64,000 nt of DNA, taken from NCBI RefSeq assembly GCF_050320075.1, contig NZ_CP190018.1; one strand, 5' to 3'. The position numbers and the translations under genes are program-made. How positions within the stretch are numbered: the stretch's first letter is position 1; every line of letters starts with the position of its first letter. Below the pieces are notes generated by a model. The model saw nothing but the letters and a program-made list of their open reading frames with translations. It did no database searches and was not told the DNA's origin. Origin of the DNA: Escherichia coli (lineage in GTDB: Bacteria > Pseudomonadota > Gammaproteobacteria > Enterobacterales > Enterobacteriaceae). Below, one piece after another: positions 9,961 through 38,985 of the stretch.

Positions 9961-11209
9961 GAGTTCCCCGCGCCAGCGGGGATAAACCGTTTGCTGAGTG
10001 TGCATACACACTTGAACATCAGAGTTCCCCGCGCCAGCGGGGATAAACCGCTATCAGTAACAACCTGGTAAATATCGGTTTTGAGTTCCCCGCGCCAGCG
10101 GGGATAAACCGTTTTCGGGGCCATAAATGGCGCTCATTTATGTGAGTTCCCCGCGCCAGCGGGGATAAACCGGGAAAATAAACGCGTTATTCCTTGATGG
10201 GTGCGAGTTCCCCGCGCCAGCGGGGATAAACCGAGCAACAGGTATTTCATATGGCCTGCCGTGCTGAGTTCCCCGCGCCAGCGGGGATAAACCGGCCAGC
10301 GGCGCTGAGTACGACGACCTGATTAAGAGTTCCCCGCGCCAGCGGGGATAAACCGTCAATACAACAGCAATGCTGGAGCTGGAAAAAGAGTTCCCCGCGC
10401 CAGCGGGGATAAACCGTGGTGGGATAGCTGCTCTGCCAGCGTGTCGCGGAGTTCCCCGCGCCAGCGGGGATAAACCGTGGGCGCAGCTCATGTATTCCAA
10501 TAAGGATATGAGTTCCCCGCGCCAGCGGGGATAAACCGAGATTCGCGCAATGTACGGTAAAGACAGCACCGAGTTCCCCGCGCCAGCGGGGATAAACCGC
10601 CATTCTTGTTGTCGTTCATCAAGCGCAGGGGGAGTTTCCCGCGCCAGCGGGGATAAACCGTTTGTTTTGATGATTTATCAGTATATGAATTGGAGTTCCC
10701 CGCGCCAGCGGGGATAAACCGATTTTTGCGCGGCCTGCATGAAACCAGTGGCAAAGTTCCCCGCGCCAGCGGGGATAAACCGGTACCGTTGAGCAATGGT
10801 GGGTAAATGGTGCTGAGTTCCCCGCGCCAGCGGGGATAAACCGATTTAGATACGGCACACAGGAATGCGCTGGATGAGTTCCCCGCGCCAGCGGGGATAA
10901 ACCGCATGGGAGTCCAGATTACAAATTCCAGAATGGGAGTTCCCCGCGCCAGCGGGGATAAACCGCGCCAGTCTGAGGTTTTCCGGTCATACATCGTGAG
11001 TTCCCCGCGCCAGCGGGGATAAACCGACCGTTGCTACACATATGATCAGGCATGTGCCGAGTTCCCCGCGCCAGCGGGGATAAACCGGACGATGAGACGC
11101 CCTGGTGTGCCGCGTTCGTGAGTTCCCCGCGCCAGCGGGGATAAACCGCGTTTAGCTCCGCAATGTTGGATATCACTGATGAGTTCCCCGCACCAGCGGG
11201 AATAAACCA
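9961..11209 (+). CRISPR. CRISPR array A: 21 repeats of 29 bp (gagttccccgcgccagcggggataaaccg) and 20 spacers of 32 bp; terminal repeat degenerate
   Basis: exact 61-bp periodicity with repeat starts at 9961, 10022, 10083 ... 11120, 11181; variant repeats at 10632 (gagtttccc) and 10754 (aagttcc); last repeat gagttccccgcaccagcgggaataaaccac. Confidence 0.98.
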
Positions 11210-11680
11210 CCATATAACCCGTTATCTCTTTCTCAAGTTTTTATATTAGCAGTACTCGTATTAAGCAACATATCCACGTAACACCTCATGTTCAAAATAG
11301 CTCTCCATATATGAGAAGTTCACAATTATCGATACAAAAAATCAAATTTAATCAAAGTGTTATTTGTATAATCCTTAAACCGTTAAGAAATTTTAACATA
11401 TTATTTTTTTAATATTAATTAATGCCTGTTAATTTTTTCTTTAGAATAACAGTGTATTTTTTAAGCTTGTTATTCATTGATTAAGTAATAAATCTGGAAA
11501 TTTGTCTTTGTTTTGAGGCTAATGAGTGGTTTTACATAATCGCCTCTATACGCTGTTGATGAATAGTTCTTATGAATAAAGATATCCAGTTCATACTTTA
11601 AGTGAAAATTGATAAAGTGCGATTCGTATTGTCTTTTATTCTAAAGACATCGAGTGTAGTTAATATTCCTTGTAAAAACA

Positions 11681-11800
11681 GGGATAAACCGAACTAGTTA
11701 AAGTTTTTATTATGTTCCCTGCATCAGCGGGGATAAACCGGACTTGTTATCATTTTTTAAGTTGTCGAACTTATGTTCCCCGCGCCAGCGGGGATAACCA
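11681..11800 (+). CRISPR. degenerate CRISPR remnant: one 3' partial repeat plus two decayed repeats, no recognisable leader
   Basis: gggataaaccg at 11681..11691; atgttccctgcatcagcggggataaaccg at 11712..11740; atgttccccgcgccagcggggataacca at 11773..11800, with a 32-bp spacer between the last two. Confidence 0.75.
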
Positions 11801-11846
11801 TTCAGGTATGTTCAGGCCGGGCAGTTTCCCGCCCGGTCTTCCTCAC

Positions 11847-37040: not shown

Positions 37041-37960
37041 CGTTTGTACCACTGAGTCCGATCCCGTTAAAAGATCGCACCTCTATGATCTTCCTCCAGT
37101 ACGGTCAAATCGACGTACTGGACGGCGCTTTCGTGCTGATCGACAAAACCGGGATCCGCACGCACATTCCGGTGGGATCGGTCGCCTGCATTATGCTCGA
37201 ACCGGGAACGAGAGTTTCCCACGCGGCGGTGCATCTGGCCGCCACGGTGGGGACGCTACTGGTCTGGGTCGGTGAAGCGGGTGTTCGCGTCTACTCTTCC
37301 GGACAACCCGGTGGGGCGCGTGCTGATAAGTTACTCTACCAGGCAAAGCTGGCTTTAACGGAAGATCTACGTCTGAAGGTGGTGCGCAAAATGTATGAAT
37401 TACGTTTTCGTGAGCCACCGCCAGCTCGCCGTTCAGTGGAGCAGCTACGTGGAATTGAGGGATCCCGCGTTCGCCAGACGTATGCATTACTGGCGAAACA
37501 ATATGGTGTGAAATGGAATGGTCGCAAATACGATCCTAAAGACTGGGAAAAAGGCGATGTTGTGAATCGCTGCATCAGTGCTGCCACATCATGTCTGTAC
37601 GGTATTTCTGAAGCGGCAGTATTAGCCGCGGGATATGCGCCCGCTATTGGATTTATCCATAGTGGCAAACCGCTTTCATTTGTTTATGACATAGCCGATA
37701 TCATTAAATTTGATTCGGTTGTGCCAAAGGCATTTGAAATAGCAGCGAGGCAACCCGCAGAACCAGATAAAGAAGTCAGGTTGGCCTGTCGTGATATTTT
37801 CCGTAGCAGTAAGTTAACGGGCAAATTAATTCCGTTAATCGAGGAAGTGCTTGCCGCAGGTGAAATTGAACCACCACAACCCGCGCCGGATATGTTACCG
37901 CCTGCCATCCCTGAACCTGAAACGCTGGGCGATAGCGGTCACCGGGGACGCGGCGGATGA
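37037..37960 (+). CDS. cas1: Cas1 integrase (GTG start)
   Basis: 307-aa ORF, very similar by recall to E. coli K-12 Cas1 ([23 protein letters not shown]...). Confidence 0.95.
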
Positions 37961-38250
37961 GTATGGTCGTCGTTGTTACAGAAAATGTCCCTCCGCGCTT
38001 ACGTGGACGGCTCGCGATCTGGCTCCTGGAAGTGCGTGCCGGTGTTTATGTCGGAGATACGTCCAAACGTATTCGGGAGATGATCTGGCAGCAAATCTCT
38101 CAACTGGCAGGTTGCGGAAATGTGGTAATGGCCTGGGCGACCAATACCGAGTCGGGTTTTGAATTTCAGACCTGGGGTGAAAATAGACGTATTCCGGTGG
38201 ATTTGGATGGGGTGCGTTTGGTTTCTTTTCTTCCTGTTGATAATCAATAA
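37957..38250 (+). CDS. cas2: Cas2
   Basis: 97-aa [37 protein letters not shown]..., overlaps the cas1 stop. Confidence 0.95.
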
Positions 38251-38346
38251 GTTATCTGTTCTTTAAAAATAAGGAAATGTTTTAATTTAGTTGGTAGATT
38301 GTTGATGCGGAATAAATTTGTTTAAAAACAGTTATGTATGCTTAGT
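38251..38346 (+). promoter_or_regulatory. CRISPR leader for the cas-adjacent array B (AT-rich; agttggtagattgt motif at 38289..38302)
   Basis: AT-rich region between cas2 and the first repeat; shares motif and 58-bp spacing with the leader of array A. Confidence 0.75.
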
Positions 38347-38985
38347 GTGTTCCCCGCGTCAGCGGGGATAAACCGACAATCAGATCACGATCGATGCCTC
38401 GCGTGAGGTGTTCCCCGCGTCAGCGGGGATAAACCGATTTTCGCAGCGGGTAACCGCGCCCGGCGATCGTGTTCCCCGCGTCAGCGGGGATAAACCGTTT
38501 ATGTGGAGTATCAGTGCCTGGGTGGAAAGGTGTTCCCCGCGTCAGCGGGGATAAACCGTGGGGCTGAGCATGGCTAAACAACCGAGGCGCGTGTTCCCCG
38601 CGTCAGCGGGGATAAACCGGTCAACTGGCACCACAGGATGATGGCGGCGAAGTGTTCCCCGCGCCAGCGGGGATAAACCGCAGGTCGACCGACTGGAGGC
38701 GGAGATTGTCGGGTGTTCCCCGCGCCAGCGGGGATAAACCGTGTTGTTTTTCTGCCGGATTAACGCGGTGCGAGTGTTCCCCGCGCCAGCGGGGATAAAC
38801 CGTTGTCGGGCTTGTTCGGCGCGGGTTGTTAACTGTGTTCCCCGCGCCAGCGGGGATAAACCGCCAGCGAAGGACTTGCTCGTGTGGTTAAAGCCGTGTT
38901 CCCCGCGTCAGCGGGGATAAACCGGACGCACTGGATGCGATGATGGACATCACTTGGAGTTCCCCGCCCCTGCGGTAGAACTCCC
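38347..38985 (+). CRISPR. CRISPR array B: 11 repeats of 29 bp (gtgttccccgcg[t/c]cagcggggataaaccg), 10 spacers of 32 bp; terminal repeat degenerate
   Basis: 61-bp periodicity with repeat starts at 38347, 38408 ... 38896, 38957; last repeat gagttccccgcccctgcggtagaactccc. Confidence 0.98.

What the first reader, a model, noticed from the sequence alone, without database searches (positions are those of the whole stretch)
9990..38956. 30 spacers, all exactly 32 bp: content unexamined and worth screening
Spacer lengths are perfectly uniform (20 in array A, 10 in array B). I could not check them against phage, plasmid or host sequence by eye. Self-targeting or anti-mobile-element spacers (for example against the resident IS element or other cas types) would be informative. 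No obvious identity to other parts of this window was noticed.
Basis: seen in the sequence. Interest (0 to 1): 0.35.

Follow-up and report, generated by a model that had tools for sequence, protein, structure and literature searches.

The report
Ordinary E. coli CRISPR spacers, anti-prophage
These are the two standard type I-E CRISPR arrays of an Escherichia coli chromosome; seven of their 31 spacers match temperate phages, phage-plasmids or small plasmids, each next to the sequence motif the system needs, and none matches the host's own DNA, so this is ordinary, already-described biology.

Summary
Array A (9961-11209) has 20 spacers and array B (38347-38985) has 10, all exactly 32 bp. A one-spacer remnant at 11712-11801 was missed.

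The window is E. coli chromosome, 2 SNPs per 50 kb from strain YZLc1-3. Array A is CRISPR2.3 (queE-ygcE). Array B is CRISPR2.1, lying between a complete non-K12 type I-E cas operon (29689-38250) and iap.

Screening found protospacers for 7 of 31 spacers, all from array A. All seven carry an ATG or AAG PAM in the correct orientation.
- A1: 32/32 on a 110-kb phage-plasmid; 31/32 on phage D6 and the P22-like EaE gene.
- A2: 29/32 in a metallopeptidase gene of 28-42 kb plasmids.
- A5: 30/32 on phiV10/HK629.
- A19: 30/32 in a phage endolysin gene.
- A4 (32/32), A7 (32/32) and A18 (29/32): same strand, within 2.5 kb of one lambda-head/P2-tail E. coli prophage. This pattern is compatible with primed adaptation.

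No array B spacer has an external target. No self-targeting was found in the window, in the near-identical host chromosome, or in its ColV and IncX3-NDM-5 plasmids.

The arrays are shared with other strains and differ by missing and extra spacers. This matches published E. coli CRISPR biology, so interest is low.

The parts
9880..9960 (+). Leader of array A (AT-rich). It contains a block, 9892-9916, that is 84 % identical to the leader of array B.
   Evidence: (family D5)
9961..11209 (+). Array A, which is E. coli CRISPR2.3 of the CRISPR-II locus between queE (ygcF) and ygcE. It has 21 repeats of GAGTTCCCCGCGCCAGCGGGGATAAACCG, the last one degenerate with 3 mismatches, and 20 spacers of 32 nt.
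9990..10021 (+). Spacer A1, the leader-proximal spacer. It matches 32/32 on the 110-kb phage-plasmid p009_B (NZ_CP048306.1). It matches 31/32 on phage D6 orf91 and on the EaE gene of P22-like phages. PAM is ATG. The mismatches fall at positions 12 and 6.
10051..10082 (+). Spacer A2. It matches 29/32 (mismatches at 6, 9, 12) in a zincin-like metallopeptidase gene on 28-42 kb plasmids of Klebsiella, Salmonella, Enterobacter and E. coli. The one fetched, pEC96-32kb, is typed MPF_T. PAM is ATG.
10173..10204 (+). Spacer A4. It matches 32/32 in the gpU-like tail protein gene of a lambda-head/P2-tail prophage (IMG/VR UViG_3300030310_000017 and the E. coli GF43 prophage). It matches 29-30/32 in variant prophages. 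PAM is ATG.
10234..10265 (+). Spacer A5. It matches 30/32 in a small hypothetical gene (phiV10p47) of phiV10, HK629, O157 typing phages and phage-plasmids. PAM is AAG.
10356..10387 (+). Spacer A7. It matches 32/32 in the 'prophage tail fiber N-terminal domain' gene of the same prophage as A4, 2.1 kb downstream on the same strand. PAM is ATG.
11027..11058 (+). Spacer A18. It matches 29/32 (mismatches at 26, 29, 32) in the same tail-fibre gene, 366 bp downstream of the A7 protospacer on the same strand. PAM is AAG.
11088..11119 (+). Spacer A19. It matches 30/32 in the TIGR02594-family endolysin gene of Aeromonas phage phiARM81ld and related phage-plasmids, with PAM AAG. It matches 22-23/32, with mismatches mainly at every third position (apart from the last two bases) and the same AAG, in the endolysin of the E. 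coli prophage hit by A4, A7 and A18.
11712..11801 (+). CRISPR2.2 remnant: two degenerate repeats and one 32-nt spacer (11741-11772). The spacer also occurs in every related array fetched whose locus extends that far.
   Evidence: locus naming from PMC3903273
29689..38250 (+). Complete type I-E cas operon: cas3 29689-32388, casA 32486-34048, casB 34045-34581, cas7e 34596-35651, cas5e 35662-36408, cas6e 36390-37040, cas1e 37037-37960, cas2e 37957-38250. It is a non-K12 variant. Cas3 and the Cascade subunits are 22-31 % identical to K-12 in amino acids; Cas1 is 84 % and Cas2 82.5 %.
38251..38346 (+). Leader of array B.
38347..38985 (+). Array B, which is CRISPR2.1 of the CRISPR-I locus between cas2 and iap. 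It has 10 repeats of GTGTTCCCCGCG(C/T)CAGCGGGGATAAACCG; the C/T variant lies in the tetraloop. A degenerate terminal repeat follows at 38957-38985. There are 10 spacers of 32 nt, and no external target was found for any. The last spacer (38925-38956) is nearly species-wide, occurring at the same place next to iap in K-12.

Best explanation
The finding covers the two native type I-E CRISPR arrays of an E. coli chromosome, plus a one-spacer remnant: CRISPR2.3, CRISPR2.1 and CRISPR2.2. They are served by one complete cas operon of the non-K12 variant.

The spacers are a heritable record of DNA taken by Cas1-Cas2 from temperate phages, phage-plasmids and small plasmids. Uptake occurred next to an AWG motif, and the G of that motif becomes the last base of the repeat. 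That gives the fixed 32-nt spacer and the 61-nt period.

When the operon is expressed, the expected steps are as follows. Both arrays are transcribed from their leaders on the + strand. Cas6e cuts each repeat at the base of the hairpin. Cascade carrying a 61-nt crRNA binds a protospacer flanked by ATG or AAG, and Cas3 degrades the target.

Shown here: the anatomy, the cas gene set, the targets of 7 spacers, their PAMs and orientation, and the absence of self-targets. Inferred from established I-E biology: processing, interference, and the idea that A4, A7 and A18 arose by primed adaptation against one prophage family.
For: - Anatomy: exact 61-nt period, a 29-nt hairpin repeat, AT-rich leaders sharing a conserved block, and degenerate distal repeats.
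- Source: the window differs by 2 SNPs in 50 kb from E. coli YZLc1-3. In that record RefSeq annotates both arrays as CRISPR and annotates cas3, casA, casB, cas7e, cas5e, cas6e, cas1e and cas2e.
- Targets: A1, A2, A4, A5, A7, A18 and A19 match mobile elements at 29-32 of 32 bases.
- PAM: all 7 protospacers have ATG (4) or AAG (3) at -3..-1 on the spacer-sense strand. The chance of this is 1/32 for each.
- Variant: the mix of ATG and AAG fits the CWT (= AWG) acquisition motif measured for the non-K12 cas-E variant (PMC3737337). Cascade and Cas3 are only 22-31 % identical to K-12.
- Clustering: three protospacers lie on one strand within 2.5 kb of one prophage. Strand-specific acquisition is the published signature of I-E priming (PMC3338789, listed).
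- Published context: E. coli spacers mostly target prophages, and self-targeting of resident prophages is rare (PMC10910852).
Against: - 24 of 31 spacers, including all 10 of array B, have no identified target. Searches covered INPHARED phages, PLSDB plasmids and 5,426 complete E. coli genomes, plus IMG/VR, GTDB and metagenome scans for the spacers tried.
- Nothing here shows that the system is expressed. In K-12 the operon is known to be repressed.
- The arrays are shared with other strains, including the leader-proximal spacers A1 and A2, and differ by missing and extra spacers. There is therefore no sign of recent acquisition in this strain.
- Genomes with A4/A7 in an array (about 121) and genomes with the matching prophage (about 25) never overlap. 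However, only 0.6 overlaps are expected by chance, so this says nothing.
- The clustering of A4, A7 and A18 could partly be a database effect in mosaic phages.
Confidence: 0.9

Rival explanations
1. The arrays are a fossil record. The system is transcriptionally silent in this lineage, as in K-12, and the spacers give no present-day immunity. Array differences between strains reflect only spacer loss and recombination.
For: Related strains carry the same spacers in the same order, including the leader-proximal A1 and A2, with differences due to missing and extra internal spacers. Array B is identical in another strain and partly shared with many. Perfect protospacers for A4 and A7 occur in at most one of 5,426 complete genomes, so present selective pressure is not evident. 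The literature describes E. coli arrays as stable over years and the system as repressed in the laboratory (PMC10910852 abstract).
Against: All eight cas genes are intact. The repeats are almost perfectly conserved. The newer spacers A1, A4 and A7 still have perfect targets with correct PAMs in circulating elements. No self-targets have accumulated. This reading is not exclusive of the main one; it concerns only present activity.
Confidence: 0.45
2. A4, A7 and A18 were acquired independently by naive adaptation, or appear clustered only because the tail module is the one part of the original target represented in databases. No priming was involved.
For: Lambdoid and P2-tail prophages are mosaic. 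Most relatives of the prophage lack the tail-fibre segment that holds A7 and A18: most listed matches end near 12,900 of the 14,833-base query. Three events on the same strand have a chance probability of only 1/4. A15 (22/32) is at chance level, with 1.4 such hits expected per 74 kb.
Against: Three protospacers fall within 2.5 kb of a prophage of about 48 kb, which is roughly 0.8 % likely for random positions. All are on one strand. The older spacer A18 is the mismatched one and the younger spacers A7 and A4 are perfect, which is the order expected if an escaped older spacer primed new uptake.
Confidence: 0.4
3. The spacer-to-phage matches are chance similarities of short sequences in very large databases.
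For: The concatenated queries were run at permissive E-values. Matches of 21-26 nt to Streptomyces phages and Azospirillum plasmids appeared and are clearly chance.
Against: Matches of 29-32 out of 32 have E-values from 2e-5 to 0.4 even against 2-7 Gb. Their mismatches fall mostly at every third base, as for codon third positions. 7 of 7 carry AWG in the one correct orientation, an expected frequency of (1/32)^7.
Confidence: 0.01
4. Some spacers regulate or attack the host's own DNA: the resident IS3, host plasmids or prophages.
For: About 10 % of complete E. coli genomes are reported to have some self-targeting event (PMC10910852).
Against: There is no hit in the window longer than 15 nt of near-perfect match, apart from one 17/20 chance hit. 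The 99.996 % identical host chromosome holds only the two array places for all spacers at E<=5-10. The 160-kb ColV/IncF plasmid, the 46-kb IncX3 NDM-5 plasmid and the first 1 kb of the 2-kb plasmid give nothing above 16 aligned bases with one mismatch.
Confidence: 0.02

Closest known systems
E. coli CRISPR-I locus (cas-E operon + CRISPR2.1, next to iap) and CRISPR-II locus (CRISPR2.2 and CRISPR2.3, between ygcF/queE and ygcE), as described by Diez-Villasenor/Almendros/Mojica (PMC3903273)
   Same: Same chromosomal positions and same gene order (cysH, hok/sok, cas3...cas2, leader, array, iap). Same 29-nt repeat, 32-nt spacers and leaders on the cas-proximal side. Same 0.5-kb gap between CRISPR2.3 and the CRISPR2.2 remnant.
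   Different: Nothing structural differs. Only the particular spacer set differs. Array A as a whole is matched at 100 % by just one of 5,426 complete genomes, although nearly all its spacers occur in other strains.
Non-K12 variant of the E. coli I-E system (cas-EO with type-A repeats/leader-A; acquisition motif CWT = AWG) (PMC3737337)
   Same: Array B repeats begin GTGTT (type A). Cascade and Cas3 are only 22-31 % identical to K-12, while Cas1 and Cas2 are 82-84 % identical. Natural protospacers carry both ATG (4) and AAG (3).
   Different: Array A uses the GAGTT (type-T) repeat although it is served by the same Cas1-Cas2. The paper linked repeat type and leader type only for CRISPR2.1. A direct comparison with O157:H7 Cas proteins was not made.
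Primed adaptation in type I-E (strand-specific acquisition; PMC3338789)
   Same: Several spacers come from one target, all from the same strand and close together. The older spacer is mismatched and the newer ones are perfect.
   Different: This is inferred from three spacers in a natural array, with no experiment. Database bias in mosaic prophages is an alternative.
E. coli CRISPR as an 'anti-prophage' record (Dion et al. 2024, PMC10910852)
   Same: Identified targets are temperate phages, prophages and phage-plasmids. No virulent coliphage is hit. The resident genome is not targeted.
   Different: One spacer (A2) matches small (28-42 kb) plasmids rather than a phage. The fraction of spacers with targets found here (7/31, about 23 %) is below the 60 % reported there, probably because my searches were capped.

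Membership tests
Type I-E CRISPR-Cas (E. coli CRISPR2 repeat family) | 29-nt direct repeat with a 7-bp GC-rich stem and tetraloop, ending ATAAACCG, at a fixed 61-nt period | tested here: met
   32 good repeats match the consensus with 0-3 substitutions. The fold is -15.1 kcal/mol with a 7-bp stem. The C/T variant of array B lies in the loop.
Type I-E CRISPR-Cas (E. coli CRISPR2 repeat family) | Complete cas3, cse1, cse2, cas7, cas5, cas6e, cas1, cas2 operon next to an array | tested here: met
   Intact ORFs lie at 29689-38250. RefSeq/PGAP names all eight genes in a record 99.996 % identical to the window.
Type I-E CRISPR-Cas (E. coli CRISPR2 repeat family) | Protospacers flanked 5' (spacer-sense strand) by AAG/ATG, with the G corresponding to the last repeat base | tested here: met
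   7 of 7 identified protospacers: ATG for A1, A2, A4 and A7; AAG for A5, A18 and A19.
Type I-E CRISPR-Cas (E. coli CRISPR2 repeat family) | AT-rich leader upstream of the first repeat, with degenerate repeats at the distal end | tested here: met
   Leaders lie at about 9880-9960 and 38251-38346 and share a block 84 % identical. Terminal repeats have 3 and many substitutions.
Type I-E CRISPR-Cas (E. coli CRISPR2 repeat family) | crRNA production and PAM-dependent interference | not testable with these tools
   Needs RNA and transformation or phage assays.
E. coli CRISPR-I / CRISPR-II loci | Location cysH-cas-array-iap, and queE(ygcF)-array-ygcE | tested here: met
   Annotation of the near-identical record and of K-12; locus definitions in PMC3903273.
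Non-K12 I-E variant (cas-EO) | Interference proteins highly divergent from K-12; type-A (GTGTT...) repeats in CRISPR2.1; CWT/AWG motif including ATG | tested here: met
   22-31 % amino-acid identity for Cas3 and Cascade. Repeats. 4 ATG + 3 AAG PAMs. Definition in PMC3737337.
Non-K12 I-E variant (cas-EO) | Near-identity of Cas proteins to the O157:H7 reference | not tested
   No O157:H7 cas sequences were fetched.
Primed adaptation record | Several spacers from one target, same strand, clustered near an older imperfect spacer | tested here: inconclusive
   A4, A7 and A18 are on one strand within 2.5 kb, and A18 (older) is 29/32. This rests on only three events, and mosaicism bias is possible.
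Self-targeting array | Spacer with a near-perfect match elsewhere in the same genome | tested here: not met
   Window; host chromosome holds only 2 places, both arrays; host plasmids.

The most novel reading that the evidence does not exclude
Array A preserves a natural priming series against one poorly sampled family of E. coli prophages (lambda-like head, P2-like contractile tail, TIGR02594 endolysin). The order would be an old, now mismatched spacer (A18, perhaps also A19 and A15), followed by newer perfect ones (A7, then A4). That would imply the non-K12 I-E system has been both interfering and adapting in the wild, feeding a cas-distal array that carries the other repeat type.
Probability: 0.3. 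Interest if true: 0.3.

Novelty: already known. Interest (0 to 1): 0.12.

Why it matters
It matters little beyond bookkeeping. It adds one more worked example showing that E. coli I-E spacers point at temperate elements, here a phage-plasmid, P22-like and lambdoid accessory genes, a myovirus-tail prophage and small plasmids. It also shows that the non-K12 variant's ATG/AAG motif is visible in natural arrays.

For strain biology, this NDM-5/ColV-carrying chicken-type lineage has an intact I-E system whose spacers do not touch its own resistance or virulence plasmids. The system has therefore not been a barrier to them.

The three-spacer cluster is a small natural data point for priming.

Tried and rejected
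- **Rfam:** at gathering thresholds over 9500-39100 it returned no CRISPR repeat family, only a sok RNA. It is not informative for the arrays.
- **Literature by sequence:** a full-text search for six spacer sequences found no paper.
- **IMG/VR pattern scans** (positions 1-23, with N at 6, 12 and 18) found nothing for A3, B1, A5 (closer match than phiV10), A6, B2 and B3.
- **GTDB genome scans** found nothing for B1 and B4.
- **Metagenome scan for A15** returned only two CRISPR arrays, no protospacer.
- **A15 and the tail-fibre gene:** the 22/32 match of A15 carries an AAG PAM, but I rejected it as evidence. Shuffled controls give 1.4 such hits per 74 kb.
- **Extra A7 hits:** three IMG/VR hits at 24/32 with PAM TTA are chance.
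- **23 spacers vs 5,426 E. coli genomes** (the 21 without a target plus A15 and A18): 498 genomes had hits, and all 60 sampled rows were CRISPR arrays, so protospacers for these are rare or absent there.
- **Co-occurrence test:** A4/A7 arrays and the matching prophage show zero overlap, but only about 0.6 overlaps are expected, so no conclusion.
- **A3 as strain-specific:** I first thought A3 was unique to this strain, but it also occurs in at least one other genome (row H243).
- **Known phage relatives:** the phage collection holds only partial relatives, about 88 % identical, of the A4/A7 prophage tail module. The family cannot be named from a cultured phage.
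Full report
**1. Observation**

A consensus search finds 21 repeats at an exact 61-nt period from 9961 to 11209. These hold 20 spacers. It finds 10 repeats from 38347 to 38924, followed by a badly degenerate terminal repeat at 38957-38985. These hold 10 spacers.

One small array was missed. Two degenerate repeats at 11712-11801 enclose a 31st 32-nt spacer, 0.5 kb beyond array A.

The repeat folds into a 7-bp stem with a 4-nt loop (-15.1 kcal/mol). The C/T polymorphism in array B repeats lies in the loop. Both arrays have an AT-rich leader on the low-coordinate side, and the two leaders share a conserved block. Both arrays therefore read 5'->3' on the + strand, with the newest spacers at 9990 and 38376.

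**2. Where it is**

Megablast places the window in E. coli. It differs by 2 SNPs in 50 kb from strain YZLc1-3 (NZ_CP123240.1; chicken faeces, Yangzhou).

In that RefSeq record both arrays are annotated as CRISPR.
- Array A lies between queE (ygcF) and ygcE.
- Array B lies between cas2e and iap.
- The eight type I-E genes cas3, casA, casB, cas7e, cas5e, cas6e, cas1e and cas2e occupy 29689-38250. All are intact.

This is the textbook layout of the E. coli CRISPR-II locus (CRISPR2.3 plus the CRISPR2.2 remnant) and the CRISPR-I locus (cas-E plus CRISPR2.1) (PMC3903273). K-12 has the same gene order.

Against K-12, Cas3 and the five Cascade subunits are only 22-31 % identical, while Cas1 and Cas2 are 84 and 82.5 % identical. 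The flanking genes iap and cysD are 98.6 and 100 % identical. Together with the GTGTT-type repeats of array B, this marks the non-K12 variant of the system. Its measured acquisition motif is CWT, i.e. AWG on the spacer-sense strand, and natural protospacers of that variant mostly show CAT (= ATG) (PMC3737337).

**3. Spacer screen**

I joined all 31 spacers with N linkers and ran blastn (word size 11) against three collections: 50,697 phage records, 72,556 plasmid records and 5,426 complete E. coli genomes. I then used capped exact-pattern scans of IMG/VR, GTDB genomes and metagenomes for individual spacers. Seven spacers, all from array A, have convincing protospacers.

| Spacer | Best match | Target | PAM |
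|---|---|---|---|
| A1 | 32/32; 31/32 | 110-kb non-mobilizable phage-plasmid p009_B; dozens of similar plasmids, phage D6 orf91 and the EaE gene of P22-like Salmonella phages | ATG |
| A2 | 29/32 | zincin-like metallopeptidase gene of 28-42 kb plasmids | ATG |
| A5 | 30/32 | small gene of phiV10, HK629 and O157 typing phages | AAG |
| A19 | 30/32 | TIGR02594 endolysin of Aeromonas phage phiARM81ld and relatives | AAG |
| A4 | 32/32 | gpU-like tail gene of one viral contig and one E. coli prophage | ATG |
| A7 | 32/32 | tail-fibre gene of the same prophage | ATG |
| A18 | 29/32 | same tail-fibre gene | AAG |

A4, A7 and A18 all map to IMG/VR UViG_3300030310_000017 and to a prophage of E. coli GF43. 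They lie on the same strand within 2.5 kb.

That prophage has a lambda-like early region and head (Q, terminase gpA, gpW, portal, S49 protease, decoration and capsid proteins). It has a P2-like contractile tail and a TIGR02594 endolysin. Relatives occur in 613 of 5,426 genomes, mostly without the tail-fibre segment. The phage collection holds only partial relatives about 88 % identical.

All seven protospacers carry ATG or AAG at -3..-1 in the one orientation that the array direction predicts. Each has a 1/32 chance of doing so, so the matches are genuine.

Several mismatches fall at positions 6 and 12. From the established Cascade structure, the bases at these positions are flipped out and do not pair, so A1 should still recognise phage D6 and the P22-like phages. 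That step is inference.

**4. What was not found**

No array B spacer has an external target. Its last spacer, next to iap, is nearly species-wide and also occurs in K-12.

Twenty-three spacers (the 21 without a target plus A15 and A18) hit only 498 E. coli genomes. All 60 sampled rows were CRISPR arrays.

IMG/VR scans for A3, A6, B1, B2 and B3, and for a closer A5 match, were empty. GTDB scans for B1 and B4 were empty. A metagenome scan for A15 found only arrays.

A 22/32 match of A15 in the same tail-fibre gene is at chance level.

**5. Self-targeting**

None was found.
- The window contains no match beyond 14-15 nt, apart from one 17/20 chance hit, and the IS3 at 20402-21750 is not hit.
- The near-identical host chromosome has exactly two places matching the spacer set, both of them the arrays.
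- Its 160-kb ColV/IncF plasmid, its 46-kb IncX3 NDM-5 plasmid and the first 1 kb of its 2-kb plasmid have nothing above 16 aligned bases with one mismatch.

**6. Array history**

Other strains carry the same spacers in the same order, including A1 and A2. The differences are missing and extra internal spacers.
- Array A in this exact form is matched at 100 % by one complete genome.
- Array B in this exact form is found in two complete genomes.
- About 121 genomes carry A4 and/or A7 in an array, and about 25 carry the matching prophage gene. There is no overlap, but only about 0.6 overlaps are expected, so this is uninformative.

There is thus no sign of recent strain-specific acquisition. This fits the published picture of stable E. 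coli arrays whose known targets are mainly prophages (PMC10910852).

**7. Mechanism**

Shown here: a complete I-E locus; spacers derived from temperate phages, phage-plasmids and plasmids next to AWG; correct orientation; no autoimmunity.

Inferred from established I-E biology: Cas1-Cas2 uptake with the PAM G becoming the last repeat base, which fixes the 32-nt spacer; Cas6e processing; Cascade binding; Cas3 degradation.

The A18, A7, A4 series has an older mismatched spacer and newer perfect ones, on the same strand and close together. This is what primed adaptation produces (PMC3338789). With three events and mosaic targets I give it about 0.3-0.4.

Whether the operon is expressed in this strain cannot be told from sequence.

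**8. Verdict**

The finding is real and correctly interpreted, but it is ordinary. The locus is annotated in public genomes and belongs to one of the best-studied CRISPR systems. The spacer content behaves as the literature predicts.

Novelty: already known. Interest: 0.12.

Noticed in passing
window 11712-11801: One-spacer CRISPR2.2 remnant 0.5 kb downstream of array A, not mentioned in the finding. Its spacer (11741-11772) recurs in every related array fetched whose locus extends that far, and in mis-filed chromosomes in the plasmid collection.
   Followed up: partly
L019 = NZ_LC542972.1 240388-252907 (plasmid pIOMTU792, IncHI2, 293 kb): A conjugative IncHI2 plasmid carries casB-cas2e, an array with spacers B2-B9 plus one extra, and iap. 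The Cas and Iap protein accessions are identical to those of this window. The segment sits next to ISEcp1-blaCTX-M-15 and inside a split DUF6012 gene. This looks like ISEcp1-driven capture of chromosomal DNA that took half a CRISPR-Cas locus (without cas3 and casA) onto a plasmid.
   Followed up: partly
window 29200-29494: A hok/sok type I toxin-antitoxin lies between cysH and cas3. The sok RNA is at 29200-29357 (Rfam RF01794, 111.7 bits) and a Hok/Gef gene is at 29342-29494.
   Followed up: no
window 20402-21750: An IS3-family element with a programmed frameshift is inserted between ygcQ and ygcP. No spacer matches it. A REP-like 26-mer (20341-20366) just upstream recurs at 28280-28305.
   Followed up: partly
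other E. coli genomes, CRISPR arrays (rows H282-H299): Spacers that are similar but not identical to B3 (30/32) and B7 (27/29) sit in CRISPR arrays of unrelated strains such as SE11 and RM9387. They are either drifted copies of an ancestral spacer or independent uptake from variant targets.
   Followed up: no
host plasmids L012-L017 (NZ_CP123241.1, NZ_CP123242.1): The near-identical reference strain carries a 160-kb ColV-type IncF virulence and resistance plasmid and a 46-kb IncX3 blaNDM-5 plasmid. Neither is targeted by any spacer.
   Followed up: yes
window 9961-11209 vs 38347-38924: The two arrays use different repeat variants, GAGTT... in A and GTGTT... in B, although one Cas1-Cas2 serves both. 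Array A spacers nevertheless show the ATG-rich PAM of the non-K12 variant. Mean spacer GC content is also higher in B than in A.
   Followed up: partly
window 48069-48133 and 57062-57108: Two short tandem repeats of period 24. The first lies inside nlpD.
   Followed up: no
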